From the NCBI GenBank assembly GCA_964385975.1, contig CAYLSK010000001.1:1-43501 (forward strand): a stretch of 43,501 nucleotides of DNA. Reading direction: 5' to 3'. Under the pieces are notes generated by a model. That model ran no database searches. It was not told the DNA's origin and saw only the letters and a program-made list of their open reading frames with translations. The stretch comes from an uncultured Anaerolineaceae bacterium. Lineage in GTDB: Bacteria > Chloroflexota > Limnocylindria > Limnocylindrales > CSP1-4. Shown in pieces: positions 1 to 33,509 of the stretch. The number at the start of each line of letters is the position of its first letter. Positions within the stretch are counted from its first letter, which is position 1. The translations under genes and the position numbers were made by a program.

Positions 1-48
1 GTCCTACGAGGCGCGTCCCCGATTTACGTTCGACCCCCACCCCCCCGG

Positions 49-2569: not shown

Positions 2570-2603
2570 GGCACATCCGCCGCGTCGAACACCGCCAGCC
2601 TGG

Positions 2604-3384: not shown

Positions 3385-3398
3385 GATTGGTTCCTCCT

Positions 3399-3623: not shown

Positions 3624-3626
3624 GGC

Positions 3627-4655: not shown

Positions 4656-4657
4656 CG

Positions 4658-5928: not shown

Positions 5929-6134
5929 CAGCGGTTGCCGTCGAGCAGGCGCAACTCGCTCTCAGTGAGCCCGACGCCGTAGCGGACGAACGTCGCCAGT
6001 TGCCGCCGGCAGAGGCGGCAATCGGTCCGGGGCTCCCGGTCCGCATGGGCGCCGCGGCGGTGCGCCGCGACCGCCTGTCGGGCGGCATGGATGGTGACGG
6101 TACTCGGCGGGGCGGTCGCTGCATCGGTCGTCAT
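5928..6134 (-). CDS. hypothetical protein (68 aa)
   Basis: ORF in the track. I prefer the internal ATG (MTTDAAT...). The longest form starts at 6170. Confidence 0.4.
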   Translation of the reverse strand: MTTDAATAPPSTVTIHAARQAVAAHRRGAHADREPRTDCRLCRRQLATFVRYGVGLTESELRLLDGNR

Positions 6135-12883: not shown

Positions 12884-14754
12884 GCCCGCGTCCAGAGGAA
12901 GCCATCGAAGAATCTTCGACGATGAGTCGGGGGCGGACCTGAGAGAGTATAGAAGTCGCCGACCTCTACCCAGCGAACACAGATGTCATCATCGGGAAAG
13001 GTGATCGTTTTCGTGTTGCGCCCGGTTCCTGTGATCGTCCCGCTGTCGTCTGTGACGATTCCCACCCCATCGACATAATGCTGGAGCTTCCACGTCGTGT
13101 TCGGGTCGAGGTCGTAAACGACGGTGTAGATGTCCATCGTTCCCGGACCGACCCCGAAGAGACGTGCCGAGCCGATGCCGTGGTCTGTCCATCCAGCCGG
13201 GTTCTGCGCGCCAGCGTCGGCGAACTGATAGATGGGGAAGTGCCACGGACTGGCGCCGGTGTAGTACGGCGAGGGCACGATCGGCGTTGCGCCGCCGGCC
13301 CGGTGATAGATGATGTTGCCGATGGCGCCAAAGGTCAGGCCGTTCGGCCCCCCCAACGGCGCTTGGTAGCCTTCGGGGGTCGATTCGATATCGGGGCAGA
13401 CGACCTTCATTGGCGTCAGGGTCAACGGGATCTCGAGCGTCGTGTGAGCCAGCTGCGTGACGATCCGACGCAGGGCGCGCATCCAGATGAAGCCGCCCGT
13501 GTAGCTGGGCGGGCCGTCATTGTCGATATATCCCGGCAGATGTGTGGCGTGCATCTGCACTCGCATCCCGTGCATGACCGCGTTGACGTTCTCCTCCTGG
13601 ACGGTCAGCGTGGTCGTGACGACGTCATCGGGCTCGTCCATCTCGTGCAACTGGCGGGTCGCCTCTGCCAGCGCGGTCGCCTCGATCTTGGTGTTGATCG
13701 CCGGCGCCGACACGTCGCGCGAGACATAGCGATCCCGCACGTCAGTGTCCTGGACATAGACGTAGCCCGGAGCTCCGTCGAAGGGCTTGAAGATGCCCGA
13801 GGCGATCCGCCCGCCGGAGCGCGCGAGCTTGACGTCCGCCGATAGCGCGAACGTCGTGACGTCGTCGATCTCCTCGGCCACGTTCGACAGGCGGATCGCG
13901 GACTCGTACAGCTCGTACGTGTTGAAGTCGAAGTAGGCGATCGAGTAGCGCGGCTCGATGACCGTCCCGCCCGTCCCGCCGACGGTGACGTTGACCGGGA
14001 TCGTGAAGGTCGTGTCGTCGATTCGGGTGACCGTGTAGTTGCCATCGAGCGCCGGCGTCGAACCGCTGTGTCCGCTGATCTCAACCTCGGCCCCGGTCAG
14101 CAGGTTGTGCGGCGCGTCGGTCGTGATGACCGTCGGGTTGGCGACGGACGACGACACGATCGTGCCGGCGATCGCGAGCTCGTTGAACCAGATGAAGTAG
14201 TTCTTGCCCGAGGCGTCCTTGGCGGCCGACAGCATCGTCTCGGCCGTCTGCCCGGTGAGGTCCGCCTTGTCCAGGTTCTTGGGCCCGGTCGTGTCGAGGT
14301 AGAGCGAGTCCTTGACCGCCGCGCCCTCGGTCGTCGTCAGCCACCACTGGATCCGTTCGATGTCGGTCTCGGCCGGGCGCTTGACGTCATCGCCGACGAA
14401 GATCTTGCGGGGGATGATGGAGTTCTCATCCTCCATCGTCACGATCCAGGTCCGCGAGGTTGGCGTGAAGGGCTCCGCCCAGACGATGTCGACGTCGCTG
14501 ATCCACCAGTTGCCGACCCGCCGATGACCGGCCGGCGCGTCGTCCGCGATGGCGTAGATCCGGCGGTGTGCGAGCAGGTTCAGGTCGGCGTTCGGATCGT
14601 CGATCTCGATCGTGACCGAGGCCCCAGAGCCCTCCTCCGCGTTGGCCCCGACCGACGCGCCCGGCTTCTCCTCGATGCTGCTCGGCAGACGGATCCGGTC
14701 GGTGATGTCGACGGTCGTTTCGGTAGCCGTGGAGACGACCCATCGGACGGCCAT
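12880..14754 (-). CDS. minor tail protein directly after the tape measure (distal-tail / tail-tip type, 624 aa)
   Basis: Its ATG overlaps the tape-measure stop. Size and position are typical of Dit/Tal-type proteins. It has an inserted domain ANPTVITTDAPHNLLTGAEVEISGHSGSTPALDGNYTVTRIDDTTFTI. Confidence 0.55.
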   Translation of the reverse strand: MAVRWVVSTATETTVDITDRIRLPSSIEEKPGASVGANAEEGSGASVTIEIDDPNADLNLLAHRRIYAIADDAPAGHRRVGNWWISDVDIVWAEPFTPTSRTWIVTMEDENSIIPRKIFVGDDVKRPAETDIERIQWWLTTTEGAAVKDSLYLDTTGPKNLDKADLTGQTAETMLSAAKDASGKNYFIWFNELAIAGTIVSSSVANPTVITTDAPHNLLTGAEVEISGHSGSTPALDGNYTVTRIDDTTFTIPVNVTVGGTGGTVIEPRYSIAYFDFNTYELYESAIRLSNVAEEIDDVTTFALSADVKLARSGGRIASGIFKPFDGAPGYVYVQDTDVRDRYVSRDVSAPAINTKIEATALAEATRQLHEMDEPDDVVTTTLTVQEENVNAVMHGMRVQMHATHLPGYIDNDGPPSYTGGFIWMRALRRIVTQLAHTTLEIPLTLTPMKVVCPDIESTPEGYQAPLGGPNGLTFGAIGNIIYHRAGGATPIVPSPYYTGASPWHFPIYQFADAGAQNPAGWTDHGIGSARLFGVGPGTMDIYTVVYDLDPNTTWKLQHYVDGVGIVTDDSGTITGTGRNTKTITFPDDDICVRWVEVGDFYTLSGPPPTHRRRFFDGFLWTRA

Positions 14755-22373: not shown

Positions 22374-23987
22374 TCAGTCGATCTCGAGCAGCCGGAAGGC
22401 GTTGAAGGCCAGGACCTTGGTGCCGTTGCGCCAGGCCGCGTAGATCGTCGTGCCGCCTGTCGGCCGTCCGCTGCCATCCCGGGTGTCCACGACCTTGGTC
22501 GTCAGGCCAAGCCGGTCCACGACGACGAAGCCCGTCTTGAAATCGCCGAAAAGCAGGACGTGCTTGGTGTCGGCCGTGGTGTCGTCCATGGCCGACGCTT
22601 CGTGGACCGGGTAGCCGCGAAGGGTGCCCGACTGCGCGTTGTAGATCGAGCCCGCATCCTGGCCGGCCGTGCCGAACGCCGGGACCTTCTGGAGGATCGC
22701 GTTGTTGGCGACGAAGCGCGACTTGGCGATACCGCGGAAGCGTGGCGGCAACGCGCCGATCAGCTTGTCGATGTCGGCGAGCAGGAAGGCGTCGTTGGTC
22801 GTGGTGAGCACGATGCTCGAGGTCTCGGCGATGATCGCGGCCACGATGCCTTCGGGCTCGTCGGTGCCGTCACCCAGGAAGAACTTGGTGGCCTCGAGGG
22901 TGTCTTTCGCGGTGGCGATCAGGGTGCCGACCTCGCCCAGGAGCGCGGCCGAGCCGTAGTCCTGCAGATACTCGAGCGTGATGTCGACCGACACGTCCGC
23001 GCGAACGGGCGTCACGGTCGGATCGTCGAGGTCGCTCGGGGCGCCGTCACTGGCTCCGGTGGTTGCCCGGGTCGCCTCGGAGACGTAAGCCGCCGTCACA
23101 CCCTCGGTGGTGATGGCCGACCAGGTCTTGGCGGTCGTGGTGGCGATCCGGCTAATCGCGCGAATCGGGTTCGCGGAACCGTCGCTGACGTCGATGAACG
23201 TCGGGTCGATCTCGGCCGGGATGGAGACCCCCCCGTCCGTCGCGCTGTAGCTCTGCATGACCGCGAGACGCTGACCGGTCAGGGCCCTTCCCCTGGCGTA
23301 GTCGGTCCAGGCGGCGACGTAGACCGGGTCGCTCGTGCCGATCACGTGCTGCGAAACCCAGCCGTAGTCATCGTTGCGATGCTTCGTGATCAGCTTCTCG
23401 AGCTGCGCTCGCACCTTGTCTGGATCGGACGCAGTCGGGAAGCTCATTTGCTCGATTGCCCGCATCGCTCCGTCGCGGTAGGCGGCCGGGAGGTCGTCGA
23501 TGCTCGTGACCCTCTGGCGGTAGGCCGCCAGGTCGTAGATGTTGTCAGGCGTGCGACGGACGTTCGGGGCTGCGAAGGAGGTCACAGGTCCCTCCGTTCG
23601 ACGGGCCTCGCCGCTGGCCGAGGCTGACTGGATCGCAGCCTCGCGGATCTCGAGCTCGTCGATGGTCGCGGTCACGCGAGCCAGGAGCCCGAGATTCTTC
23701 GGATCCTCGCTCGTGATTTCCTCGAACTCGACGCGCTGGGCGTCGTTGAACGAACTGCCGGCCGCCTCGTTGTGCAGCTCGGTCATCCGGGCGCGGAGCT
23801 CAGCCGCCGCCTGCCGATGGGCATCCAGACCTCGCAGGCCCTCGATGTCGAAACCACCGCTATAGCAAGCGATGCCGATCCCGGCCGGTGTGAAGGCACC
23901 GGCACCGATGCCGAATGGGCGATAGACGGCGAAGGCGGCGACCGCTCCCGCGTACCGCTCCACAGGAATGCGTCGAACGTCGTTCAC
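22374..23987 (-). CDS. major capsid protein, HK97 fold, with N-terminal delta/scaffold-like region
   Basis: Position after the protease. A coiled-coil delta-like segment is followed by a long beta/alpha capsid body. GTG 23987 forms a GTGA overlap with the protease stop. The longest ORF starts at 24017. Confidence 0.8.
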   Translation of the reverse strand: MNDVRRIPVERYAGAVAAFAVYRPFGIGAGAFTPAGIGIACYSGGFDIEGLRGLDAHRQAAAELRARMTELHNEAAGSSFNDAQRVEFEEITSEDPKNLGLLARVTATIDELEIREAAIQSASASGEARRTEGPVTSFAAPNVRRTPDNIYDLAAYRQRVTSIDDLPAAYRDGAMRAIEQMSFPTASDPDKVRAQLEKLITKHRNDDYGWVSQHVIGTSDPVYVAAWTDYARGRALTGQRLAVMQSYSATDGGVSIPAEIDPTFIDVSDGSANPIRAISRIATTTAKTWSAITTEGVTAAYVSEATRATTGASDGAPSDLDDPTVTPVRADVSVDITLEYLQDYGSAALLGEVGTLIATAKDTLEATKFFLGDGTDEPEGIVAAIIAETSSIVLTTTNDAFLLADIDKLIGALPPRFRGIAKSRFVANNAILQKVPAFGTAGQDAGSIYNAQSGTLRGYPVHEASAMDDTTADTKHVLLFGDFKTGFVVVDRLGLTTKVVDTRDGSGRPTGGTTIYAAWRNGTKVLAFNAFRLLEID

Positions 23988-25021
23988 CGTTTCTTCCCTT
24001 TCATGCGCTGATTCCAAGCCCGGTCGGGCTGGCTGATGGACATGGCGGCGACCGCTGCCCGGCCGTGGTCGGCCGGAATCGATGTCAGCGCCCCGCGAGA
24101 GGTTGGCTTGGCTGTGCGGCCGAGGCGGGCGACGGTTGCCTCGAGGGTGTCGATCCGGTCGACCATCCCGGCCGCGAGAGCCTGGCGGGCGAGCATCGTG
24201 CGGCCCTGCCCGTAGCTGCTGGCGACAATGCTCGACGTCACTCCGCGACCCTTGGCGACGTCGCCGAGGAACATCGCGTAGAACGTGTCGACCTGATCCT
24301 GGATGTTCGCCTTCGCCTCATCGGCGAGCGGCTCGAATGGGTTGCCCTCGGTCTTGTATCGACCGGCGCTGATGAGCGTGATCTTGATCCCGGCCATCTC
24401 GAGCGCGCCGCTGTCATCTTCATGCGCGGCGTATACGCCGATCGATCCGACCTCGCCCGATGGCGTCATGACGAGTTGGTCGACCGAGCACCCGATCCAG
24501 TAGGCGGCCGAGGCAGCCAGGGGGTTGACCACCGCGACGATCGGCTTCGTGCCACCGCGGATCCCCCGCAACTCGGTGGCGAACTCGGGGATGCCATCGA
24601 CGCTCCCGCCCGGCGACGAAATATCGAGGACGACCGAGGTGGCGGCTGGGTCGGCGAGCGCCTCTCGGATAGCGTTCCGAAGGTCATCGATGCTTGTACC
24701 GCCGAACAGCCAGCTCCAGAAGTCGGAGCGCTGGGTTATCAGACCGTAGACGGGGATCACGGCGGTCGGGCCGACCATCGCGCCGCCCATCCGCTCCATC
24801 CATGAGGACGCTGACATATCCGGCTTCGGCTTCGTCGGGGGTTCCATCGGCAGCGTCGACGCGTTGAGCATCATCGCTAGCCAGGAGCGGCGAATCGCCC
24901 ACGGACGCTCGGCGAGTGCGCTGCGGATAAGCGCTCGGGTCGGCGAGGCCGCAGGCTCGATGAGTTCGATCGGGTCGGGGTCGACGACGATCGGTTCCAG
25001 CACCGCAGTCACAGGATCCAT
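23984..25021 (-). CDS. prohead protease, S49 (SppA/ClpP-fold) family
   Basis: VVLDISSPGGSVDG…AASAAYWIGC…GSIGV motifs are typical of S49 peptidases. Confidence 0.8.
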   Translation of the reverse strand: MDPVTAVLEPIVVDPDPIELIEPAASPTRALIRSALAERPWAIRRSWLAMMLNASTLPMEPPTKPKPDMSASSWMERMGGAMVGPTAVIPVYGLITQRSDFWSWLFGGTSIDDLRNAIREALADPAATSVVLDISSPGGSVDGIPEFATELRGIRGGTKPIVAVVNPLAASAAYWIGCSVDQLVMTPSGEVGSIGVYAAHEDDSGALEMAGIKITLISAGRYKTEGNPFEPLADEAKANIQDQVDTFYAMFLGDVAKGRGVTSSIVASSYGQGRTMLARQALAAGMVDRIDTLEATVARLGRTAKPTSRGALTSIPADHGRAAVAAMSISQPDRAWNQRMKGKKR

Positions 25022-25037: not shown

Positions 25038-25124
25038 GGGGTGGCGGGGTATGCAGGTCAAGGGGTGGCGGGGTGTGCTAATTGGGTGGCGGAGGGGGTG
25101 GCGGAGGGGTGGCGGGGTGTGCTA
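25038..25124. repeat. five GG(G/T)GGCGG(G/A)G repeats in the intergenic spacer (G-rich on the template strand)
   Basis: Copies at 25038-25049, 25062-25073, 25084-25092, 25094-25104 and 25106-25117. ggcggggtgtgcta is duplicated at 25068-25080 and 25112-25124. Confidence 0.8.
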
Positions 25125-25679
25125 GTTCACGTGTCGCGAGGGGCTGTCCGATTCGTTCTCGGGCTTCATGACCTCGGCACGGATCGTCTCCATCTCGTGG
25201 ACGAACGAACCGACGACCGTCTCGGGCGTCTCAAAGATGATGTCCAGCTTGAGGATCTCGAAGCCCGCCGCTTCCAGCTGCTCACGGAACGAACGCGGTG
25301 ACCAGCCGCCCTTGTGCTGACCGCCGGCTGAGTTCGGCTCCCCGAAGAGTATCTGCAACGCATCGCTGCGACTCGGGCCGTGGAGCCAGTAGCGCGCCGC
25401 ATAGTCGAGGTTCGGGACCGCAATGATGGCCGGGGCGCCTGGCTTCAGCACGCGCAGCCATTCGGCCAATACGTCGGAGACCCGTTCCCATTCGATGTGC
25501 TCGAGGCAATGGCTCGCCCAAATCTCGTCAACGGAGTCTGTCTCGTACGGCAGCGTGCCGAGGTCGGCCTTGACGTCGGCTTCGGGCGCGTGAAGATCAA
25601 CCGTCGTGTAATCCGGCGCGACCCTGCCCGTTGAGGAGCCGAGATCGAGTTTGAGCGGGGCCAGCGTTTCGACGGTCAT
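25122..25679 (-). CDS. class I SAM-dependent methyltransferase (Methyltransf_11-like)
   Basis: LDLGSS…TVDL…LPYETDSVDEIWASHCLEHI…LRVLKPGAPAIIAVP shows motifs I, II and III in order. Confidence 0.65.
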   Translation of the reverse strand: MTVETLAPLKLDLGSSTGRVAPDYTTVDLHAPEADVKADLGTLPYETDSVDEIWASHCLEHIEWERVSDVLAEWLRVLKPGAPAIIAVPNLDYAARYWLHGPSRSDALQILFGEPNSAGGQHKGGWSPRSFREQLEAAGFEILKLDIIFETPETVVGSFVHEMETIRAEVMKPENESDSPSRHVN

Positions 25680-26308
25680 ATCATCTCCACCCGTGGGTCC
25701 GTGATCGGACGGTACTGCCGGAACTCGCCGTCGCCGTCGAGGTGCGTGAGCGGCAACAGGTCATGGAGCGAGATGTGCGTTCCGCGCCTCGCTACCTCGT
25801 AGATCGCGCCTTCCACCAGCCCCTTCGTGTAGCCCTCCTCCTTGACGTAATCCATCGCCCGGACCAGCAGCGAGGTCGCCATGAGCGTGCAACCCATCGC
25901 CTGGTAGTAGCCCGGCTTGCCATCGTGGAACGGGTAGGTATGGGTCACGAACGGCGAGGCGACATAGGCCGCCGCGTTGAGCAGGGTGTCGATCAGCAGG
26001 GGCGGTCCGATGATGTCCTGCTCGAGCGACAGGACCCAGCCGTACATGTGCTCGACGGCGTAATCCGTGATGACCTCCCAGGCGCGCGTGAAGGTGTGCT
26101 CGAACTCAGCCTCGGGCTCGATGTGACGGACGCCGACCCCGAACTCCTTGCTCATCCAGGCCGCGTACTTCCCTTCGTCGCCCGTGTTGTCCACGAGCAG
26201 CAGATCCCGGTTTGGATAGGCAAAGTCGTTGTACGCCTCGATGTAATGGACGAGGCAATAGCGCTTCCCTCGGTAGGTTGGCGCCGCCACGAGGACGCTA
26301 TCGACCAT
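25676..26308 (-). CDS. GT-A-fold (family 2-like) glycosyltransferase candidate (210 aa)
   Basis: VLVAAPTYRGKRY…LLLVDNTGDEG… and SLEQDI (a DxD-like motif). ATG 26308 lies inside the upstream gene's end. Confidence 0.5.
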   Translation of the reverse strand: MVDSVLVAAPTYRGKRYCLVHYIEAYNDFAYPNRDLLLVDNTGDEGKYAAWMSKEFGVGVRHIEPEAEFEHTFTRAWEVITDYAVEHMYGWVLSLEQDIIGPPLLIDTLLNAAAYVASPFVTHTYPFHDGKPGYYQAMGCTLMATSLLVRAMDYVKEEGYTKGLVEGAIYEVARRGTHISLHDLLPLTHLDGDGEFRQYRPITDPRVEMI

Positions 26309-26783
26309 TGCGCACCGCGTGAAGGAAGATGCCCGGGAGCAGCGCGTCCTCCTGGACCTCGATGACCTCGCAGCCCGCAAGCTCGGCCAACACGGGGCCG
26401 GAATCTGGCAGGAACCGCCACAGATCGCCGGGGTAGTCGTGAACGGAGCAGCCGTTGCCACGCGCCGTGATCAGCAGATGCCCGCCGTGTTTGAGGACGC
26501 GCCCCATCTCGGGTAGTGACAGCCAGGGCGCCGTGTCGTGTTCGAGCATCTCCGTGCTCACCACGACATCGAATGAGGCGTCTGCGAACGGCAGTTCGTG
26601 GGCATTCGCCACCTGATCCACACCCGGCCCGTCGCGCATGTCTACCCCGACGTACGGCCCGCTGAACCACTGGCGCACGCTGCCATTCACGTCGAGCGAA
26701 CCGACTTCCAACGTCGAGAGTCCCGCCAGCCCGTCGATCGCCACGGTATCGGCTACCCAGGAGTGAACGGACTCGTGCATCAC
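26298..26783 (-). CDS. class I SAM-dependent methyltransferase (161 aa)
   Basis: LEVGSLDVNG…VGVDM…FDVVVSTEMLEH…LKHGGHLLI. ATGA overlap with the fibre stop. Confidence 0.65.
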   Translation of the reverse strand: MMHESVHSWVADTVAIDGLAGLSTLEVGSLDVNGSVRQWFSGPYVGVDMRDGPGVDQVANAHELPFADASFDVVVSTEMLEHDTAPWLSLPEMGRVLKHGGHLLITARGNGCSVHDYPGDLWRFLPDSGPVLAELAGCEVIEVQEDALLPGIFLHAVRNGR

Positions 26784-29236
26784 GCCATCCGCTGGATGAA
26801 GGCAAGGGCGAAATACGGCTGCGCAGCCGCCATCGAGGCGATCGTCGGTTGCGTGATGCTGTGGTCGCTGAAAGCCGGCTGGGTGATCGCGTGGGCCGAG
26901 GGTTGGGTGACACCGTGGGCGCTGAACGCCGGTTGGGTGATCGAGTGTGCTGAGGGCTGCGTGATCGAGTGGGCGGAGAAAGCCGGCTGGGTGATCGAGT
27001 GAGCCGACACGACCGGCTGGGTCACGGCGTGGGCGGCGATCGCCACGGACGTCGAGAGGCTGTGGCTGGACAGGGCGACGCTCGTGGACAGGCTGTGGTC
27101 GCTGAAGGCGGGCTGGGTGATCGCGTGGGCGCTCACGACCGGTTGGGTGATCGCATGCGCTGAGACCACCGGCTGCGTGAGGGTGTGCGCCGAGACAACG
27201 GGCTGGGTGATCGCGTGGGCGCTCGGCTGAGTAATGGCGTGAGCAGACACGACGGGCTGCGTGAGGGTGTGCGCGGAGACCACGGGTTGAGTCACAGCGT
27301 GGGCGCTCGGCTGAGTGATGGCATGGGCGGAGACGACGGGCTGGGTGAGCGCGTGCGCCGAGACCACGGGTTGAGTCACAGCATGGGCCGATGGTTGGGT
27401 GATGGCGTGGGCGGAGACGACGGGCTGGGTGAGCGCGTGCGCCGAGACCACGGGTTGAGTCACGGCGTGCGCATCGGGTTGGGTGATCGCGTGTGCACTG
27501 ACAACAGGCTGTGTCAACGCGTGGGCGCTCACGACGGGTTGCGTCAATGTATGGGCACTGACGACAGGTTGGGTAAGAGCATGGGCCGACACGACGGGCT
27601 GGGTGAGAGCGTGGGCGGAGACGACGGGCTGGGTGAGCGTGACGGTGGTCGTGACGACCACGACTCGCGTGGTGCCCGATGCCGCGGAGGCAATCGTCGT
27701 AACGCTGGCACCGACATTCGTGGACAGGGTGTGCGCGCTGACCGCTACATTCGTCGAGAGAGCGTGAGCGTCGATCGCTACATTCGTGCTCAGGGCGTGC
27801 GCCGAGATCCCGACGCTGGTCGACAGCGCATGAGCGTCGATGGCCACACTCGTGCTCAGCGAGTGGGTTGAGACGGCTGCGCCCGCGTGCGCCGAGATAC
27901 CGACGTTCGTGGAAAGCGCATGAGCGTCAATCGCGACATTGGTCGAGAGGCTGTGCGTGCTGACAGCGGTTCCGCTATGGGCATCGATTGCGACGCTGGT
28001 CGACAGCGCGTGGGCGTCGATCGCCACATTGGTCGAGAGGCTGTGCGTGCTGACGGCGGCCCCGCTATGGGCGTCAATGGCGACATTGGTCGAGAGGGCG
28101 TGCGCGTCCACCGCGACGTTCGTTGACAACGAGTGGGTGCTGACGGCAGCCCCGCTGTGAGCGTCAATGGCGACATCCGTAGTCAGGGCATGGGCGTCGA
28201 TGCCGACGCTCGTTGACAGAGCGTGCGTGCTGATAGCCGCGTTGGTCGAGAGGGCATGCGCGTCGATGGCGACGGATGTCGAGAGGCTGTGGCTCGATAG
28301 GGCGGGCTGCGTGATCGAGTGATCCGAGAAGGCCGGCTGCGTGATCGAGTGAGCATCCAACGCCACATTGGTGGACAACGCGTGCGAGTCGATGGCGACG
28401 CTCGTGGACAGCGAGTGCGTGGAGACATCGGTACCCGAGTGCGCGTCGAGCGCCACGCTGGTCGAGAGGCTGTGCGCGGAGATGGCCGCGCCGCTGTGCG
28501 CATCGATCGCCACAGATGTCGAAAGGCTGTGGCTGCTGACGGCCGCGCCCGAAGCGGTGTGAGAGTGTGTGATCGAACCGCCGGAGATAGTGAGCGAGCC
28601 TGTCAGGTTCGTCTTGGCGAAACCTGCGTCGTCAGCCGAGGCGCCAACGATGAACATGTTGCGCAGATCGGGACCGGGTGCGTTCGCGGTGCCGTCGCAG
28701 AGCTGCCAGTCCGGGGCAGGGATGGCCGCGATGGTGCCGGACCACATGATGATCCCGCCGATCGGAACGGCTCCGCCACCGGTCAAGTCTTCCCAATCCG
28801 CATCGCCATCGGCGTCGGAGACTTTCGTCAATACTTGGCCCGTTGTGCCACCGTCAGGGATGCCGCTGCCGTCGGCGCCGGGCGGTCCGCTCGGGCCAGG
28901 TCCACCGTTCCCTCCATGTTGCCCAGGCTTACCGTCGGCGCCCTGCTTGGCGAGCAATTTCCACGACACGCCCGGAGGTCGCGCGCCGCTGGACGCTTCG
29001 GTGGCCACATATGAGCTGCCCTGGTATTCAACGACGTCGGGCGGCGCATAGTCTGCCGTTAGCCGCCACGGACCGCGCCAGATGAGACCGGGCTGGCCAT
29101 CCAAGCCATCTTGGCCGGGCTTGCCCTGCGGTCCCTGCTTGCCGGGGGGGCCCGTCGGACCCGGATCACCCTGCGCTCCACGAAGAAGCTCCGCGTGTTC
29201 CTCGGCCACGATCAGCGCCGCGGAGAGCTCATTCAC
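26780..29236 (-). CDS. 818-aa collagen-like / tail-collar-like fibre protein with a long His-initiated repeat array
   Basis: Two Gly-X-Y tracts (GAQGDPGPTGPPGKQGPQGKPGQDGLDGQPG and GADGKPGQHGGNGGPGPSGPPGADG). A collar-type motif GGIIMWSG…P..WQLCDGT…PDLRNMFIVG…GGSITHSHT. Then about 54 short His-led repeats. The GTG start overlaps the portal stop (GTGA 29233-29236). Confidence 0.75.
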   Translation of the reverse strand: MNELSAALIVAEEHAELLRGAQGDPGPTGPPGKQGPQGKPGQDGLDGQPGLIWRGPWRLTADYAPPDVVEYQGSSYVATEASSGARPPGVSWKLLAKQGADGKPGQHGGNGGPGPSGPPGADGSGIPDGGTTGQVLTKVSDADGDADWEDLTGGGAVPIGGIIMWSGTIAAIPAPDWQLCDGTANAPGPDLRNMFIVGASADDAGFAKTNLTGSLTISGGSITHSHTASGAAVSSHSLSTSVAIDAHSGAAISAHSLSTSVALDAHSGTDVSTHSLSTSVAIDSHALSTNVALDAHSITQPAFSDHSITQPALSSHSLSTSVAIDAHALSTNAAISTHALSTSVGIDAHALTTDVAIDAHSGAAVSTHSLSTNVAVDAHALSTNVAIDAHSGAAVSTHSLSTNVAIDAHALSTSVAIDAHSGTAVSTHSLSTNVAIDAHALSTNVGISAHAGAAVSTHSLSTSVAIDAHALSTSVGISAHALSTNVAIDAHALSTNVAVSAHTLSTNVGASVTTIASAASGTTRVVVVTTTVTLTQPVVSAHALTQPVVSAHALTQPVVSAHTLTQPVVSAHALTQPVVSAHAITQPDAHAVTQPVVSAHALTQPVVSAHAITQPSAHAVTQPVVSAHALTQPVVSAHAITQPSAHAVTQPVVSAHTLTQPVVSAHAITQPSAHAITQPVVSAHTLTQPVVSAHAITQPVVSAHAITQPAFSDHSLSTSVALSSHSLSTSVAIAAHAVTQPVVSAHSITQPAFSAHSITQPSAHSITQPAFSAHGVTQPSAHAITQPAFSDHSITQPTIASMAAAQPYFALAFIQRMA
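26840..28545. repeat. in-frame coding tandem repeats of 24, 30 and 33 nt (His-ladder array)
   Basis: Visible both in the DNA and in the translated ORF. The many antisense ORFs in this interval are repeat artefacts. Confidence 0.85.
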
Positions 29237-31455
29237 TCTAGGAGTTCCTCGTGCGTGCCGGTGATCTCGTTGGTCTCCGGGTCGCGATCGATCACGGTTC
29301 GCGTCGGGACATGCTCAACGATCCGAACCGCGCCCTCCGAGATGTGGACCTGAGCCGGTTCGACGGATCGCTCCGGGACGTTGACGGTCACAGCCGGTGA
29401 CGTGATGGCGCCCTGCGCGATCGTGACCGGAGCGCTGTGAACATCGACCTGGACAGCTCCAGGCTCGATCTTGGTGGGGGGGGTGTTCACCTCCACCTGA
29501 ACGGCGCCAGGAGCAATCGTGACGGGTGATGCGACCGTCGTGGACCGGCCCGCCAGTGCCACGAGGAGAGCCGCCTGGTCGCGTTGCACCTGCGCTTGGT
29601 ATCGTTGTTCCTCGGTCATCTCACTGAGCCGGCGGCGGATCGTGTCGCGCGAGACGGCCATTTCGGCCGCCAGCGTGTCGTAGCCAGCCGGCCGCCCGGC
29701 GGCCTCCAGCTCGGCCTTCTTCGCGAGGACCTCCTCCGTCGTCACGATTGGGGCCGGGCCCGCGCCGAGACGGCGAGCCGGCGAATCGACCGACACGGCG
29801 ACCTGACCAGTGCCGACGGGCGCGAACAGAGAGGGGTACAAGAGGACCATGGCGTCGTCGCCTGGGAGGATTGCGCCCTCGATGATCTCGGGCGATAGCG
29901 GGCCGCTGGCCGGCCAGAAACGGCGCGTCGCTCGGTAGTCAGACACGGTCGTTCCGGCAAGCGCGTCGCGGACGATCTCGATGTCCGTCGGCGTGGCCGG
30001 CGTCCAACCTTGACCGATCATCCTGCGCAGCCGGCCGGCGCTGAGGCTGAACTCCCGCGGCGCTGCCGTCCCTGCCGCGGGCAACGTATTACCGGGCGGC
30101 TGGAGCTGGACGCTGACGAGGCCGGTATGGACGAGTCGGGTGACATCACCCGAGCTGACATAGTCCACGACGCTCGCCGGTGTGAAGCCCTCGTTCACCA
30201 GGCGCCCGATCGTCTCCGAGTTCGCCTGCATGACGCTGGCCTGGTCGGTCACGTCGGCCTGGAGGAAGGGCACCGATCGTTGGTCGAACCAGAGTCGCGT
30301 CCCTCCCGTCGGCGCCGGGATGATCGTCTCGAGCGAGCCGCACATGTTCGGCCAGAGGTAGCGCAGTGTGATGTCGCTCGTGCTGCGTTTCGCGGCGCCG
30401 TAGTTCCCAGCGTTCATCGCTGAGCCAGCCATCCCCTCCGAGAACGGGATGATGACCGGGTGCATGCCGACGACCGCGGCCAGCCGCGTCTCCATGGTGC
30501 CGGCGAGGTCCTTGTAGGCCATGTCCTTGAAGTTGGTTCCGACGGGTGCGACGGTCATGCCGCCGCCCAGGTACATCGTCTTGAACGCGTTCGTCGCGCC
30601 CCTGTGCTTCTTCTCGAACTGCTCGAGCCAGCTCTTCGCTTTGGCCTCGTCCCAATTGGGCGGGAACGAGACCGCGAGATTGGGCGTCGCGGCGTTGCGC
30701 ATGAACGCCCGCTTGTAGCTCGTGGATCCGTTGTCCGCGAGGATCTCGGGCAACGCCGCGAGGATCAGCGGCATGCCCCGGTAGCGCGATAGGGGTCCTG
30801 TGTTCGGGTGGAAGTGGGCGACCTCCTCGCGACCGTAGGCGATGACAGCCTTGCCGGACCTCGGCCCTTCGGGCGTGTAGCCGAAGCCGATGATCTCAGC
30901 GTCAGGGTCCTGTGAAAGCTCGATCGGATCGCGCTTCTGCCGCGAGCCGAGCACGATGACCGTCCAGTCCGGCCGGAGCGGCTTGATCCGGTCGACGTTT
31001 CCATAGGGAAGGCTGGGCCCCTTGGGTCTGACCACGCTGGCGGGGCGCCGGACGCCGAACCAGTCGCCTGCGAGATCCGCGTATTGGATCGCCCGGAAGT
31101 TGAGATCGAGCGTCGTCTCGCCAGGCTCCGGATGCTCGAGCGGCGCGAGGTCGGGCGTCCCGAACAGGCCACCCTCGCGACCGCCGAACATCTGCTGAAA
31201 CTGATAGCGCGCCTGGGCGAAGAGCTTCCAACGCGTCTGCAGGGCCGAGAATACGACGCTGCTGCGGCCATAGACCGACGACAGGAACTCGAGCGTTGCC
31301 GGCGGCAGCTCCTCGTCACCGCGCAGCGTCGAGCCGCCGATGAACATCGGTCCGTCGATCGAGGTCATCACGGAGAGCCAATCTCCGAAAGTGAAGTCGC
31401 CCGAGCTTGCAAACCGGGACATGCTCCGGCGCGCCATGACCGCGAGAGGATTCAT
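29233..31455 (-). CDS. portal protein (HK97-family) with about 280-aa C-terminal extension
   Basis: Position after TerL. The first ~450 aa have portal-like length and composition. The extension has an HTH-like segment and short PGAVQV / PVTIA repeats. Confidence 0.75.
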   Translation of the reverse strand: MNPLAVMARRSMSRFASSGDFTFGDWLSVMTSIDGPMFIGGSTLRGDEELPPATLEFLSSVYGRSSVVFSALQTRWKLFAQARYQFQQMFGGREGGLFGTPDLAPLEHPEPGETTLDLNFRAIQYADLAGDWFGVRRPASVVRPKGPSLPYGNVDRIKPLRPDWTVIVLGSRQKRDPIELSQDPDAEIIGFGYTPEGPRSGKAVIAYGREEVAHFHPNTGPLSRYRGMPLILAALPEILADNGSTSYKRAFMRNAATPNLAVSFPPNWDEAKAKSWLEQFEKKHRGATNAFKTMYLGGGMTVAPVGTNFKDMAYKDLAGTMETRLAAVVGMHPVIIPFSEGMAGSAMNAGNYGAAKRSTSDITLRYLWPNMCGSLETIIPAPTGGTRLWFDQRSVPFLQADVTDQASVMQANSETIGRLVNEGFTPASVVDYVSSGDVTRLVHTGLVSVQLQPPGNTLPAAGTAAPREFSLSAGRLRRMIGQGWTPATPTDIEIVRDALAGTTVSDYRATRRFWPASGPLSPEIIEGAILPGDDAMVLLYPSLFAPVGTGQVAVSVDSPARRLGAGPAPIVTTEEVLAKKAELEAAGRPAGYDTLAAEMAVSRDTIRRRLSEMTEEQRYQAQVQRDQAALLVALAGRSTTVASPVTIAPGAVQVEVNTPPTKIEPGAVQVDVHSAPVTIAQGAITSPAVTVNVPERSVEPAQVHISEGAVRIVEHVPTRTVIDRDPETNEITGTHEELLE

Positions 31456-31576: not shown

Positions 31577-31740
31577 ACGACGGCCAGACCGGCCAATACA
31601 AGGGCCGCAGGCACGAAGACCAGGCCGACCCCAATGACGACGAGCGCAGCGCCGGCGACGATCAGCGCGGTATAGGCGGTCGATGGTCGACGGATGCGCC
31701 GGAGGAACGGGCGGCGAGGCGTGCGGGCGGTCGTGACCAT
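31540..31740 (-). CDS. 66-aa two-TM membrane protein between TerL and portal
   Basis: Basic N-terminus followed by ALIVAGAALVVIGVGLVFVPAALVLAGLAVVAVGWVGLG. TGATG overlap with the TerL stop. Confidence 0.55.
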   Translation of the reverse strand: MVTTARTPRRPFLRRIRRPSTAYTALIVAGAALVVIGVGLVFVPAALVLAGLAVVAVGWVGLGVPR

Positions 31741-33509
31741 CAGTCGTCTCCACCGAAGAAGATGAACGGCTCGGCCATCGGCTCTTCGGGCTCGACCTCC
31801 GGTCCATTCGCCTCCGCGAACAATGCGTCACACCAGGCAGCGACGCCGTCGATGCGCTCGGAACTCTTCTCCTTCGAGGGCTTGATGTTGCCGGCGGCAT
31901 CCTCGTCCGCGGCGGCGTTCGCAACCATCCAGGCCAGGACCGGGTTGCCGTCGTAGTGGACGAGCCCCCCGGCGATGTCCGCCTCGAGCCGTTTCGCCGG
32001 TGCGGACAGCGAGGCGTAGCCCTGGCCGACCTCGACCACCTCGACGCCCTCGGACTGCAGCGCAGGCGTTAGCCAGGCCGTGTTCCAGCGATCGATCCCG
32101 ACACTCCAGATGTGCGCGCCCAGCGAGACGACATCAGCGACGACCTTCTCCTGGTCGACGCGGTTCCCCCCGGTCAATGTGATCCAGTCGTCGCGGGCCC
32201 AGACATCGTAGGGAACGTGGTCACGCTTGACCCGCGCCGGCATGTTCGCTGCGGGCAGCCAGAAGCGCGCCACGAGATCGTAGCATCGGCCGCCATGACC
32301 CTCGCCGGCGCAGGCGTCACGGTCGACCTTGAGGACGAAGGCGGTCAGGTCCATCGTCGACGATAGATCGAGCCCGCCCCAGCCCTTGCGGCCGGCGAGC
32401 TCGGCGGGCCCGCCGGCACAGGCGACGAACGTCACGACATCGAGCCACTTGCCCGAGCCCTCGGTCCAGATGCAGAAGCACATCCGCTTGACGACGTTCT
32501 GCTGGGCGGGCTTGCCGAGCGCCTCGCGGACCATCTCGCGTAGATAACGCGTCGACACCGAAACGCCGAGGTTCGGGTTGGCCTTGAGCCAGACGGATTC
32601 GTCTGTCCACTGGTCGCAATCGGGGCAGCCGTCGACCGGCGCCCCACCGCGGCGGTGCTCCTCGCAGGCATCGAGCCCGGCGACGAACGGGAACCAGGAG
32701 TCGTCCTGGCGGACACCCTCGAGGATTTCGATGCTGTACTGGTGGTCGGCCCAGCACACCGAGTGGCGATCGAACCCGCTGTTGGTGATCCGGAAGATCA
32801 GCGCGTCGCGCCAGCCCTTCGTGCCGGCCCGCATCGCGTCGATGACCTCGGACGACGGATGAGCGTGCTCTTCGTCGATGATGGCGATGTAGACGCGCTT
32901 ACCGTGGAGGTTCTTGGCCTCCGAGCTGACGTAGGTGAACGAGGATCCCTTCGGCCCGCTGAGCGAGTGCGCGAACATCCGGATCCGCTCGCGCAGCGGG
33001 CTCGACTTCGCGACCATGAGCCGCGCGTCGTTCCAGGCGATCGAGCTTTGGTCGCGACCTGCGGCCGCGCTGTAGATCTGGGCGCCGGAGCGGCCCTCGC
33101 CGACCATCCCGTACAGCCCGATGCCGGCGGCCATCGGCGTCTTGCCCGAGCCCTTCGCCGTCTCGGTGTAGGCGTTCCGGATCAGCCGGACATCGACGCC
33201 ATCTTCGTCGCGTGTGAACCAGCCGAACGTCGAGCCAACGATGAAGGCCTCCCAGCCCTGGAGCACGAACGGCTTACCCTCGAACTCGCCCTCGTGCAGT
33301 CGGAGGTAGCTAAAGAACCGAATCGCGCGACCGCCGGCCGCGGCATCGAACCAGATGTCCTCGCGCTCGAGCCAGCGTTCATGACGCTCGCACAGGAGGC
33401 GGACGTAGCGATTGGCGACGATCCGACCCGACAGGACGTCGGCAGCATAGGCATGGACAACGTCTGCCGCGATCTCATCGGCTGAACGGTCAAGCGCGGC
33501 GACGGCCAA
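31740..33509 (-). CDS. terL: terminase large subunit (Terminase_1-like)
   Basis: Walker A TAKGSGKTPMAAG, an IIDEEH-type Walker B, and a C-terminal nuclease half. 589 aa. Confidence 0.85.
   Translation of the reverse strand: MAVAALDRSADEIAADVVHAYAADVLSGRIVANRYVRLLCERHERWLEREDIWFDAAAGGRAIRFFSYLRLHEGEFEGKPFVLQGWEAFIVGSTFGWFTRDEDGVDVRLIRNAYTETAKGSGKTPMAAGIGLYGMVGEGRSGAQIYSAAAGRDQSSIAWNDARLMVAKSSPLRERIRMFAHSLSGPKGSSFTYVSSEAKNLHGKRVYIAIIDEEHAHPSSEVIDAMRAGTKGWRDALIFRITNSGFDRHSVCWADHQYSIEILEGVRQDDSWFPFVAGLDACEEHRRGGAPVDGCPDCDQWTDESVWLKANPNLGVSVSTRYLREMVREALGKPAQQNVVKRMCFCIWTEGSGKWLDVVTFVACAGGPAELAGRKGWGGLDLSSTMDLTAFVLKVDRDACAGEGHGGRCYDLVARFWLPAANMPARVKRDHVPYDVWARDDWITLTGGNRVDQEKVVADVVSLGAHIWSVGIDRWNTAWLTPALQSEGVEVVEVGQGYASLSAPAKRLEADIAGGLVHYDGNPVLAWMVANAAADEDAAGNIKPSKEKSSERIDGVAAWCDALFAEANGPEVEPEEPMAEPFIFFGGDD

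What the first reader, a model, noticed from the sequence alone, without database searches (positions are those of the whole stretch)
26840..28545. His-ladder: about 54 consecutive His-initiated 8-11-residue repeats in one protein
Reading the provided translation, every unit of the array begins with His.
- About 27 units are of the H-[AS]-L-S-T-[SN]-V-A-I-D-A (11 aa) or H-S-G-A-A-V-S-T (8 aa) type.
- After a short Thr/Val-rich segment come about 27 units of the H-A-[LIV]-T-Q-P-V-V-S-A (10 aa) or H-A-I-T-Q-P-S-A (8 aa) type.

The array follows a collar-type GGS-x-x-H-x-H motif. The units look like an iterated version of the L-T-x-x-Q-x-P-x-H-x-H element that ends ordinary tail-collar domains.

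His-x-His motifs coordinating metal ions along a trimeric fibre axis are established for the phage T4 long-tail-fibre tip. By inference, this array could be a very long metal-stapled trimeric beta-structure. I do not recognise this periodic architecture from any described family.

At DNA level the array is 24/30/33-nt tandem repeats, so it should be prone to expansion and contraction, which would vary fibre length.
Basis: partly seen in the sequence, partly recalled or inferred. Interest (0 to 1): 0.72.

Follow-up and report, generated by a model that had tools for sequence, protein, structure and literature searches.

The report
Mirror-image histidine ladder in phage fibre
A phage fibre protein carries 56 evenly spaced histidines in two mirror-matched halves, which most likely fold back on each other to make an unusually long needle pinned by about 28 metal ions, a stretched and re-wired version of the tip of phage T4's long tail fibre.

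Summary
ORF 26780-29236 (- strand, 818 aa) holds 56 His between aa 224 and 792. Their spacings are only 2, 8, 10 or 11 residues, apart from one 40-residue gap.

The key new finding is that the array is two mirror-matched arms, not one run of repeats. Counting outward from the collar, all 28 ascending units pair with a complementary descending unit:
- LST-type 11-mer with TQP-type 10-mer
- 8-mer with 8-mer
- types swapped in both arms at levels 8-9

The chance of this match is about 1e-8. More than 15 metagenomic relatives with 3 to 16 levels obey the same rule. Two relatives replace His by Pro at the same rungs in both arms.

The collar sequence is split around the array, as in the T4 gp37 tip, the JUB59 receptor-binding protein and the PVC fibre. 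The best reading is a trimeric six-stranded hairpin needle with 28 axial six-His rungs: one canonical HxH plus 27 "split" rungs that take one His from each arm.

The metal and the trimer are inferred, and monomer AlphaFold2 models were uninformative. The DNA repeats are old and under purifying selection, so this is not an assembly artefact.

Verdict: a new variant of a known kind, and the longest example found here.

The parts
26780..29236 (-). Fibre gene, 818 aa. The GTG start overlaps the portal stop (GTGA), and the stop overlaps the start of the next gene (GTGA).
   Evidence: homologues
29087..29179 (-). Collagen-like G-X-Y run (aa 20-50). It follows a 19-aa N-terminal segment that is conserved in P0002, P0004 and P0005.
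   Evidence: Pfam PF01391, E 2.2e-6, 27.8 bits against a cut-off of 27.2; sequences
28865..28942 (-). Second Gly/Pro-rich, partly G-X-Y segment (aa 99-124). It comes after a small 48-aa segment (aa 51-98) with a weak CBM5/12-like hit.
28784..28864 (-). GGTTGQVLTKVSDADGDADWEDL module (aa 125-151), a short motif shared with many other fibre proteins.
   Evidence: hits restricted to this motif in L013-L016 and L027-L033; four tandem copies in P0025
28568..28783 (-). N-terminal part of a short tail-collar domain (aa 152-223): GGIIMWSG...WQLCDGT...PDLRNMFIVGA...GGSIT.
   Evidence: 6ov6 alignment; family profile against PDB; AF2 pLDDT 80-87 here; relatives hit Pfam Collar PF07484
28559..28567 (-). 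HSH (His224, His226). This is the only canonical HxH and forms predicted rung 0.
   Evidence: rung indexing
27701..28561 (-). Ascending arm, aa 226-512, 28 units: 19 LST-type 11-mers, 6 SGAAVST-type 8-mers, 2 TQP-type 10-mers at levels 8-9, and 1 first unit.
27644..27700 (-). Turn or tip, aa 513-531 (TTIASAASGTTRVVVVTTT). It has no His, contains the only Arg of the array, and is similar in L008 and L022.
26834..27643 (-). Descending arm, aa 532-801, 28 units: 20 TQP-type 10-mers (the first without His), 6 TQP-type 8-mers, and 2 LST-type 11-mers at levels 8-9.
26783..26833 (-). C-terminal strand that returns to the collar (MAAAQPYFALAFIQRMA).
   Evidence: aligned to the C-termini of 9qgo and 6ov6; AF2 pLDDT 87; conserved in 125 of 179 family sequences
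26298..26783 (-). Neighbour gene: SAM-dependent methyltransferase (161 aa), translationally coupled to the fibre gene. Part of a conserved cassette.
   Evidence: Pfam Methyltransf_11, E 4.5e-12; synteny
25676..26308 (-). Neighbour gene: conserved protein of about 210-240 aa of unknown family. It has (V/I)DNT and E-x-D motifs, which I read as GT-A-glycosyltransferase-like (untested). The real start is probably the internal ATG at 26308.
   Evidence: 33-35% identical to the gene that follows the fibre gene in L001, L002 and L004; no Pfam, PHROG, NCBIfam or PDB hit; 210-aa ORF in L006
25122..25679 (-). Neighbour gene: second SAM-dependent methyltransferase (185 aa).
   Evidence: Pfam Methyltransf_11, E 4.1e-9

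Best explanation
The gene encodes a trimeric virion fibre of a high-GC siphovirus that is probably actinobacterial.

**Proposed architecture.**
- After a collagen-like stalk comes a short tail-collar domain. Its sequence is interrupted by a 578-residue insertion.
- That insertion is a hairpin. Twenty-eight units run away from the collar, a 19-residue turn reverses the chain, and 28 complementary units run back. The last 17 residues complete the collar.
- In the trimer, three ascending and three descending strands would build a six-stranded needle like that of T4 gp37.
- At every unit boundary, the residue of the ascending strand and the residue of the descending strand point to the three-fold axis.

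**Predicted metal sites.**
- At 27 boundaries both residues are His. That gives six imidazoles per rung in the trimer, arranged as two staggered triangles, which is an octahedral site.
- The collar-proximal rung uses the canonical HSH of the ascending strand alone.
- This gives about 28 metal ions stacked on the axis, and all 56 His are accounted for. The ions could be Fe2+ or Zn2+, as in T4 gp37 and gp12.

**Function.** The needle is a rigid, length-defining, metal-stapled spacer that presents a minimal tip. Its length is set by the number of rungs and changes in three-rung blocks.

**What is shown and what is inferred.**
- Shown: the mirror register, the complementary unit code, His/Pro co-variation at rungs in relatives, the split collar, purifying selection, and homology of the collar to solved fibre tips.
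- Inferred: trimer, six-stranded geometry, metal occupancy and identity, overall length, and the attachment point on the virion. My own estimate of length is under about 90 nm if fully extended and roughly 40-55 nm if coiled like gp37.
For: **1. Mirror register in the query.**
- All 28 of 28 levels obey 11-mer(LST) with 10-mer(TQP), 8-mer with 8-mer, and TQP with LST at levels 8-9, in antiparallel order.
- Parallel order matches only 14 of 28 levels.
- The exact chance of a perfect match is 1/87,026,940. The best of 200,000 shuffles reached 24.
- The run of mirrored His spacings is 26 long, reached by 0 of 1000 shuffles.

**2. The same rule holds in independent relatives.**
- In 12 ladder proteins, 97 of 98 level pairs are heterotypic and 96 of 98 are length-compatible.
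- Arm orders differ. P0001 has TQP first, with a swap at levels 15-16. L019 alternates both unit types within each arm and is still 12 of 12 heterotypic.
- Other examples:
  - L008, 12 levels with a non-trivial L/G pattern
  - L021, 8 with 8
  - P0039
  - P0036, with a 5-aa unit in both arms
  - P0048, 13 levels
  - P0032, 16 levels by eye
- A +2-residue insertion at level 2 is matched in both arms in P0046 and P0049.

**3. Co-variation at rungs.**
- His is replaced by Pro at the same rungs in both arms in L019 (5 rungs, 12 of 12 concordant, chance 1/792) and in L022 (2 rungs, 7 of 7 concordant).
- Among 35 non-redundant ladder proteins, a TQP unit without a leading His occurs only in three situations:
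  - next to the tip
  - at these Pro rungs
  - where the His is displaced by a 2-residue insertion (P0046, P0049), or where the TQP repeats are irregular (P0108)

**4. The mirror is not a DNA palindrome**.

**5. Split collar.**
- A profile of the family aligns end to end with the PVC fibre 9qgo (1.8e-19). It also matches both ends of 6ov6 (JUB59 receptor-binding protein), plus 9nxk and T4 gp12.
- The relative L009 hits Pfam Collar at 3e-18, as does the gp37 C-terminus.
- AF2 is confident only for the collar N part and the C-terminal strand.

**6. The gp37-type tip is described in the literature.**
- It consists of a collar, a six-stranded needle in which the chain doubles back, and a head, with HxH motifs binding Fe along the axis (PMC12609058).
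- It carries seven Fe ions, and the Fe-binding His are essential (PMC6957217).
- gp37 places an HxH every 9-14 residues along the descending arm, comparable to the 8-11 residues per rung here.

**7. Trimer.** There is a collagen G-X-Y run, and I know of no solved collar-type fibre tip that is not a trimer (established knowledge).

**8. Selection.** Between the window and L006, the descending arm has 98 synonymous-only codon differences against 10 conservative replacements.
Against: - No structure supports the model. Both AF2 monomer models have pLDDT 30-40 in the ladder of the short relative and the descending arm of the query. For aa 340-505 of the query, AF2 instead draws long beta-strands within the ascending arm at pLDDT 55-80. 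Foldseek found nothing significant.
- Only one canonical HxH is present. A site made of one His from each arm has, to my knowledge, not been described.
- An 11-residue period puts successive His on opposite faces of an ideal beta-strand, so each unit needs a bulge or kink.
- L006 is a 90% identical relative with 28 ascending but only 25 descending levels. Either matching is not strictly required, or L006 is a recombinant or chimeric contig. Its identity to the window switches from about 100% to about 86% at the tip.
- P0040 has one discordant rung, Pro in one arm and His in the other.
- The gene lies between the portal and head-protease genes, not in the tail module. "Tail" fibre is therefore unproven.
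Confidence: 0.68

Rival explanations
1. Same hairpin needle, but the His do not share sites. The three symmetry-related His of each arm form their own three-His site completed by water or Asp/Ser/Thr/Gln ligands, as at the insulin-hexamer Zn sites. That would give up to about 55 ions. Alternatively, the His form a metal-free hydrogen-bonded, pH-sensitive zipper.
For: - There is only one His per unit per arm.
- No structural or metal data exist.
- P0040 keeps His in one arm where the other has Pro.
- Three-His sites on three-fold axes are established chemistry (my knowledge).
Against: - His is lost together in both arms at 7 of 8 substituted rungs in L019, L022 and P0040. This is expected if the two His act as one unit.
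- His counts in the query pair off exactly, 27 with 27, plus one HxH.
- Homologous solved tips use six-His octahedral sites (PMC12609058, PMC6957217).
Confidence: 0.17
2. A single continuous parallel structure, such as a triple beta-helix, beta-solenoid or beta-meander. Each unit would stack on its sequence neighbours, and the two halves would be two successive domains rather than partners.
For: AF2 draws strands of 24-51 residues within the ascending arm at pLDDT 55-80. Many fibre shafts are parallel beta-structures (established knowledge).
Against: - It cannot explain the 28 of 28 antiparallel type match, against 14 of 28 in parallel order.
- It cannot explain the equal level numbers across relatives from 3 to 28.
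- It cannot explain matched insertions or matched His-to-Pro changes.
- It cannot explain why the C-terminal 17 residues must return to the collar.
- The AF2 model has pTM 0.37 and leaves the descending arm as coil.
Confidence: 0.07
3. It is not a functional ordered structure. It could be a low-complexity or disordered linker, or an assembly artefact of a repeat.
For: - The sequence is highly repetitive and AF2 confidence is low.
- The close relative L006 differs by one 84-nt block.
Against: - Identical peptides are encoded by 69-93% identical DNA, and the longest exact repeat is 56 nt.
- Differences from L006 are 98 synonymous against 10 non-synonymous.
- GC3 is 0.82 in frame.
- The up-arm DNA is essentially identical (2 differences in about 1530 nt) in an independent contig.
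- Dozens of relatives follow the same grammar.
Confidence: 0.03

Closest known systems
Receptor-binding tip of the phage T4 long tail fibre, gp37 (PDB 2XGF); the Bas63 long and short fibres are of the same type
   Same: - The collar domain is split by an insertion.
- The chain runs out, turns at the tip and returns to the collar.
- The needle is a six-stranded trimer with His pointing to the axis and binding Fe (PMC12609058, PMC6957217).
- Site spacing is 9-14 residues along an arm, against 8-11 here.
- The C-terminal motif is similar: NIAFNYIVRLA in gp37, YFALAFIQRMA here.
   Different: - gp37 has 7 sites, each made by an HxH of one arm. Here there are 28 predicted sites, 27 of them made from one His of each arm.
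- gp37 units are irregular. Here the units follow a strict two-type complementary code.
- gp37 hits Pfam Collar and PF03335, and the query hits neither.
- gp37 has a 28-residue head that binds OmpC and LPS. Here there is only a 19-residue, fairly conserved turn.
- gp37 is encoded in the tail-fibre module next to its assembly factor gp38. This gene sits between the portal and the protease.
Receptor-binding protein of Bizionia prophage JUB59 (PDB 6OV6), the Photorhabdus PVC tail fibre Pvc13 (PDB 9QGO, 8ON5) and the Pseudomonas phage Pa223 tail fibre (PDB 9NXK)
   Same: They share the short form of the collar, which lacks the approximately 25-residue insert of canonical PF07484. Significant profile matches include the C-terminal PYY(A/L)LAFI strand. 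Fe-binding HxH has been reported for JUB59 (PMC9509320).
   Different: These have a few HxH motifs and a globular or helical distal part. None has a periodic single-His ladder.
Pfam PF07484 (Phage Tail Collar Domain) proteins, including "microcystin-dependent protein" MdpB-like proteins
   Same: The ladder relatives L009-L012 carry a full-length PF07484 domain at E 3e-18 followed by a 3+3 ladder. Ladder-free relatives P0020 and P0024 have the usual small head with one HxH.
   Different: The query's collar is the shortened form and falls below the Pfam threshold. Its insertion of 636 aa is the longest among the 102 complete family members examined.

Membership tests
Tail-collar fibre-tip family (Pfam PF07484 and the solved tips 6OV6, 9QGO, 9NXK, T4 gp12 and gp37) | N-terminal collar motif: G-x-I-x-x-W-x-G ... 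W-x-L-C-D-G ... P-D-L-R-x-x-F | tested here: met
   - The motif is present at aa 160-205.
- The query alone gives only a weak 6ov6 hit (E 0.043) and no Pfam hit at E<=1.
- A family profile (which does not include the query) hits 9qgo at 1.8e-19, 6ov6 at 2.5e-10 and 9nxk at 5e-6.
- The relative L009 (42% identical to the query) hits PF07484 at 3e-18.
Tail-collar fibre-tip family | C-terminal strand (P-Y-[FY]-x-L-x-[FY]-I) that returns to complete the collar | tested here: met
   QPYFALAFIQRMA at aa 806-818. It aligns with the C-termini of 9qgo and 6ov6. AF2 pLDDT is 87 for this strand.
Tail-collar fibre-tip family | Homotrimer | not testable with these tools
   Indirect only: there is a collagen G-X-Y run, and I know of no solved relative that is not a trimer. 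Only monomer prediction was available.
gp37-type metal-binding needle | The chain doubles back, so ascending and descending strands run side by side | tested here: met
   Inferred from sequence. The mirror match is 28 of 28 levels with p about 1e-8. Relatives have matched level numbers, matched insertions and matched His/Pro rungs. No 3D confirmation exists.
gp37-type metal-binding needle | Repeated His-x-His motifs, each giving six ligands per trimer | tested here: not met
   Only one HxH is present (His224/226). The other 54 His are single, spaced 8, 10 or 11 residues apart. gp37 has 7 HxH.
gp37-type metal-binding needle | Match to the Pfam repeat PF03335 (Phage_fiber) | tested here: not met
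   The gp37 C-terminus hits PF03335 at 8.6e-11. The query gives no hit at E<=1.
gp37-type metal-binding needle | Metal ions on the three-fold axis | not testable with these tools
   Requires a structure or metal analysis.
Collagen-like triple-helix repeat (PF01391) | Uninterrupted G-X-Y run recognised by the Pfam model | tested here: met
   aa 20-50, E 2.2e-6, 27.8 bits against a cut-off of 27.2.

The most novel reading that the evidence does not exclude
This is an undescribed modular repeat architecture, a "mirror-repeat" metal ladder.
- Two different unit types (LST-like and TQP-like, each in long and short forms) must face each other across a hairpin.
- Each rung of the trimer is a split six-His site built from one residue of the ascending strand and one of the descending strand. 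In some relatives a rung is a six-Pro plug instead.
- Fibre length is set digitally by rung number, from 3 to 28 in nature, so the two arms have to expand in step.
- It would be the densest known natural one-dimensional array of protein-bound metal ions, at about 28 per fibre.
- It travels with a dedicated cassette of a glycosyltransferase-like protein and a methyltransferase next to the portal gene. This hints at a modified fibre attached somewhere other than the tail tip.
Probability: 0.5. Interest if true: 0.78.

Novelty: new variant of a known kind. Interest (0 to 1): 0.66.

Why it matters
If the model holds, four things follow.

- **A simple length code.** The metal-stapled needle of phage fibres could be lengthened almost at will with two complementary unit types and one His from each strand per rung. 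That would be a natural, sequence-readable ruler for fibre length. It would also be a template for designing rigid, metal-pinned protein rods of programmable length.
- **An evolutionary puzzle.** Expansion in one arm is useless, or harmful, unless matched in the other. Yet relatives span 3 to 28 rungs.
- **Metal load of virions.** It bears on estimates of how much Fe or Zn phage particles carry, the "Ferrojan horse" idea (PMC11705849). A fibre with 28 sites carries four times the load of T4 gp37.
- **A marker cassette in uncultured phages.** The conserved portal-side position and the accompanying enzyme genes mark an uncharacterised virion-appendage cassette. It is common in soil and peat metagenomes and absent from cultured phages in the collection searched.

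Tried and rejected
- **AlphaFold2 monomer, query aa 141-818 with a 24-sequence alignment.** Mean pLDDT 47. Only the collar and the C-terminal strand were confident.
- **AlphaFold2 monomer, C-terminal 168 aa of the 3-rung relative P0006.** Mean pLDDT 44, with the ladder at 30-36. Both jobs were uninformative for the ladder, as expected for an obligate intertwined trimer with a shallow alignment. No multimer prediction was available.
- **Foldseek against the PDB with the second model.** Nothing at E<=0.001. The top insignificant rows were Pa223, T4 gp12 and PVC fibres.
- **Pfam, PHROGs and NCBIfam on the whole protein.** Only the collagen and N-terminal "tail fiber" regions hit. Nothing matched the ladder.
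- **tblastn against 50,697 phage records.** Only collar-level hits in cyanophages were found. No cultured phage carries a ladder, with the caveat that the low-complexity filter was on.
- **Scan of one genome per species.** A single locus turned up, in a Bathyarchaeia MAG contig, so no host assignment was possible.
- **Exact look-up of the protein in the 15-billion collection.** Absent.
- **DNA inverted repeats as the cause of the mirror.** None found between the arms.
- **Correlating duplication histories of the four 90-nt and four 84-nt blocks.** r = 0.53 on six pairs, too few to conclude anything.
- **Unrelated top hits.** Several top phmmer hits (P0042, P0044, P0045, P0047, P0064) are unrelated low-complexity repeat proteins and were discarded.
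- **gp37 structure paper (PMC2996694).** Not held in the library. Needle geometry was taken from PMC12609058 and PMC6957217 instead.
Full report
**1. What is in the sequence**

The finding lies in one ORF, 26780..29236 on the - strand (818 aa).
- Its GTG start overlaps the stop of the portal gene (GTGA), and its stop overlaps the start of the next gene (GTGA). It therefore sits in a translationally coupled operon.
- GC at codon positions 1/2/3 is 0.64/0.57/0.80, and 0.61/0.56/0.82 inside the array. This fits the true frame of a 67% GC genome.

The protein reads as follows:

| Residues | Feature |
|---|---|
| 1-19 | N-terminal segment |
| 20-50 | Collagen G-X-Y run (Pfam PF01391 above threshold) |
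| 51-98 | Small segment |
| 99-124 | Second Gly/Pro-rich run |
| 125-151 | GGTTGQVL...DWEDL module |
| 152-223 | Short tail-collar N part, ending GGSIT |
| 224-801 | The His array |
| 802-818 | MAAAQPYFALAFIQRMA |

Between aa 224 and 792 there are 56 His. Spacings are only 2 (HSH), 8, 10 or 11 residues, plus one 40-residue gap.

**2. The array is two mirror-matched arms**

I numbered units outward from the collar in the first half (His226...His502). In the second half I numbered them backward from the C-terminal collar strand (His792...His542, then a His-less VTLTQPVVSA at 532). The two lists then correspond level by level:
- LST-type 11-mers face TQP-type 10-mers.
- SGAAVST-type 8-mers face ITQPSA-type 8-mers, at levels 3, 5, 14, 17, 20 and 23 in both arms.
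- At levels 8-9 the types are swapped in both arms. The ascending arm has HSITQPAFSD and HSITQPALSS. The descending arm has HSLSTSVAIAA and HSLSTSVALSS.

The statistics are decisive.
- All 28 levels match in antiparallel order, against 14 in parallel order.
- The exact chance of a perfect match is 1 in 87 million, and 200,000 shuffles never exceeded 24.
- Using His spacings alone, the mirrored run is 26 long, reached by 0 of 1000 shuffles.
- There is no DNA inverted repeat between the arms, so the symmetry exists at protein level only.

**3. The rule is family-wide**

Searches recovered many metagenomic relatives with the same collar, a His-rich insertion and the ...FALAFIQRM end. These came from the word-indexed search, IMG/VR, metagenome contigs and an exhaustive phmmer run against 1.84 billion representatives. 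The phmmer run gave 3097 hits at E<=1e-3 and 458 at E<=1e-10.

In 12 proteins of the LST/TQP subfamily, 97 of 98 level pairs are heterotypic and 96 of 98 are length-compatible. Level numbers are equal in the two arms in nine of the twelve: 3, 5, 5, 6, 7, 7, 8, 16 and 28, the last counting the query's His-less first down unit and its terminal down unit. L008 also comes to 12 with 12 once the tip-adjacent and terminal units are counted. P0006 and P0010 give 2 against 3 and 3 against 5 in the automatic split, which does not divide their tip-adjacent units cleanly.

The rule holds whichever arm carries which type:
- P0001 has 14 TQP units going up, facing 14 LST units coming down, then 2+2 swapped.
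- L019 alternates both types inside each arm and is still 12 of 12 heterotypic.
- Irregularities are mirrored too:
  - a 5-aa unit in P0036
  - a +2 insertion at level 2 in P0046 and P0049
  - 3-aa and 6-aa units in P0032, P0048, P0017 and P0022
- Across 65 complete family members, His counts before and after the longest His-free gap correlate at r = 0.72.

Among the 102 complete members examined, the query has the longest insertion (636 aa) and the most His.

**4. Rung-level co-variation**

The strands are antiparallel. The first residue of ascending unit i and the first residue of descending unit i-1 therefore lie at the same boundary, which I call a rung. With this indexing the query has:
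- His/His at rungs 1/2 to 27/28 (236 with 792, ... 502 with 542)
- HSH from the ascending arm alone at rung 0/1
- no His in either arm at the tip

All 56 His are then accounted for.

Two relatives replace His by Pro, and they do so at the same rungs in both arms:
- L019 reads HPHHPHPHPHPH in both arms (12 of 12 concordant, chance 1/792).
- L022 reads HHPHHPH in both arms (7 of 7 concordant).
- P0040 has one discordant rung.

In 35 non-redundant ladder proteins, a TQP unit without a leading His occurs next to the tip or at these Pro rungs. The only other cases are units whose His is displaced by a 2-residue insertion (P0046, P0049) and the irregular TQP repeats of P0108. The two residues at a rung therefore behave as one functional unit.

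**5. What it is related to**

The collar is the short form of the phage tail-collar domain.
- The query alone aligns weakly to 6OV6. The papers I read cite that entry for the receptor-binding protein of Bizionia prophage JUB59 (PMC9509320, PMC10097599).
- A profile of relatives aligns end to end with the PVC fibre 9QGO (1.8e-19). It also aligns with 6OV6 at both ends (2.5e-10), the Pa223 fibre 9NXK (5e-6) and, weakly, T4 gp12.
- The ladder-bearing L009 protein hits Pfam Collar at 3e-18, as does the C-terminus of T4 gp37.

The gp37-type tip is described as a collar, a six-stranded needle in which the chain doubles back at a small head, and HxH motifs that bind Fe on the axis (PMC12609058). gp37 carries seven Fe ions, and the Fe-binding His are essential (PMC6957217). 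In gp37 the HxH motifs lie at 883, 915 and 929 going up, and at 966, 980, 989 and 998 coming down. That is 9-14 residues apart along the descending arm, similar to the 8-11 residues per rung here.

**6. Best model**

- The protein forms a trimeric six-stranded hairpin needle. The trimer is inferred from the collagen run and from the oligomeric state of every solved relative I know of.
- Each rung places three ascending and three descending residues on the axis.
- Six His arranged as two staggered triangles is the geometry of an octahedral site viewed down its three-fold axis. gp37 builds those two triangles from His i and His i+2 of one strand. Here they would come from the two strands.
- The prediction is 28 sites: 1 canonical HxH plus 27 split sites.
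- The rise per rung is unknown. Ten residues span at most about 33 A, so the needle is under about 90 nm long. If it is coiled as in gp37 it is probably about 40-55 nm. That figure is my own estimate, not a computed result.

**7. What does not fit or is untested**

- Both AF2 monomer runs failed on the ladder: pLDDT 30-40 in the short relative and in the query's descending arm. AF2 drew a within-arm beta-meander for part of the ascending arm at pLDDT 55-80. Foldseek gave nothing significant.
- The 11-residue unit requires a bulge in each unit.
- L006 is an IMG/VR contig whose gene is essentially identical in DNA to the window through the whole ascending arm (2 differences in about 1530 nt). 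It is then about 86% identical through the descending arm, with one 84-nt block missing, and about 90% identical through the three downstream genes. As assembled it has 28 ascending and 25 descending levels.
- L007, from the same metagenome, has only three (L,L,G) blocks in its ascending arm. A 25-rung lineage therefore exists. L006 may be a recombinant or a chimeric contig joined at the tip, but a genuinely mismatched protein cannot be excluded.

**8. DNA repeats and the expansion idea**

- TRF finds periods of 24 to 168 nt at 67-84% matches.
- Units with the same peptide differ at 7-31% of bases, and the longest exact repeat is 56 nt, with its two copies 84 nt apart.
- Between the window and L006, the descending arm has 98 synonymous-only against 10 conservative non-synonymous codon differences.
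- The array is therefore old and under strong purifying selection. It is not an assembly artefact and is a poor slippage substrate.
- Rung number does vary among relatives, in three-rung blocks. Under the model, changes must be matched in both arms.

**9. Genomic context**

- The window is the structural region of a siphovirus. It encodes TerL at 31740-33509, portal at 29233-31455, an S49-type head protease at 23984-25021, the major capsid protein at 22374-24017 and the tape measure at 14754-17480.
- The nearest portals are in Gordonia, Mycobacterium and Rhodococcus phages, at 36-39% identity.
- The fibre gene lies between portal and protease. It is followed by a methyltransferase, a conserved protein of about 210 aa, and a second methyltransferase.
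- The order portal, collar/His protein, 240-aa protein (33-35% identical to the window's), methyltransferase, then protease or capsid recurs in unrelated contigs L004 and L005. The fibre, 240-aa protein, methyltransferase triplet also recurs in L001, L002, L003 and the P0003 contig.
- Where the fibre attaches on the virion is therefore open.

**10. Verdict**

The protein belongs to the tail-collar fibre-tip family. It most likely works like the gp37 needle, but with a different site construction, a strict complementary two-unit code and an unprecedented number of rungs. It is a new variant of a known kind. Interest is moderately high, pending a trimer structure and metal analysis.

Noticed in passing
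window 25122-26783 (- strand); L001 11603-13001; L002 9488-10680; L004 6948-8164; L005 9482-10698: There is a conserved cassette directly downstream of the collar/His-fibre gene: a protein of about 210-240 aa with no family hit, plus one or two Methyltransf_11 enzymes. The first protein has VDNT and E-x-D motifs that look GT-A-glycosyltransferase-like to me. In L004, L005 and the window the whole cassette sits between the portal and the head protease or capsid gene, an unusual place for a fibre gene. This may mean the Ser/Thr-rich fibre is modified, or that it is a neck or head appendage.
   Followed up: partly
L006 (IMGVR_UViG_3300010391_001538) 1-5961 against window 25161-31205: This relative is essentially identical to the window through the portal gene and the ascending arm. 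It is about 86-90% identical from the hairpin tip through the three downstream genes, and unrelated beyond that. As assembled, its fibre has 28 ascending and 25 descending levels. It is either a recombinant with its breakpoint at the tip or a chimeric contig.
   Followed up: partly
window 25676-26461 (- strand): The mechanical ORF (261 aa, GTG) probably starts at the internal ATG at 26308, giving 210 aa (MVDSVLVAAPTY...). Homologues begin there, and L006 carries the 210-aa ORF.
   Followed up: yes
window 29233-31455 (- strand), C-terminal ~250 aa of the portal protein: The portal is 740 aa. PHROG portal models cover only aa 56-411. The C-terminal extension ends in repeated motifs such as PGAVQVEVNTPP / PGAVQVDVHSAP / QGAITSPAVTVNVP. 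Its function is unknown.
   Followed up: no
window 25038-25124: A G-rich tandem repeat (periods 11 and 24 nt, GGGGTGGCGG-like) lies in the gap between the head-protease gene and the second methyltransferase gene.
   Followed up: no
window 28784-28864 (aa 125-151); L013-L016, L027-L033; P0025: The short module GGTTGQVLxKxSxxDGDxxWxD is shared at 62-84% identity with otherwise unrelated fibre proteins. It occurs four times in tandem in P0025, so it looks like a mobile fibre module.
   Followed up: no
L018 (JBEKHJ010000002.1, a MAG labelled Candidatus Bathyarchaeia, SPRUCE peat): This was the only hit among one genome per species. It is a 3+3-rung ladder gene identical in type to viral contigs L009-L012 and L024-L025. 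It is probably a phage contig binned into an archaeal MAG.
   Followed up: no
L019 (VFSW01355040.1) and L022 (Ga0335085_10237903): In these relatives some rungs carry Pro in both arms instead of His. In L019 this affects every second rung over most of the needle. This suggests six-Pro layers can substitute for six-His layers.
   Followed up: yes
P0042, P0044, P0045, P0047, P0064: These phmmer hits scored highly (E-values 1e-23 to 1e-46) but are unrelated low-complexity repeat proteins. Examples are an HAGTEFAFSC repeat and a PINQPIVNDV repeat. The hit counts therefore overstate the size of the family.
   Followed up: yes
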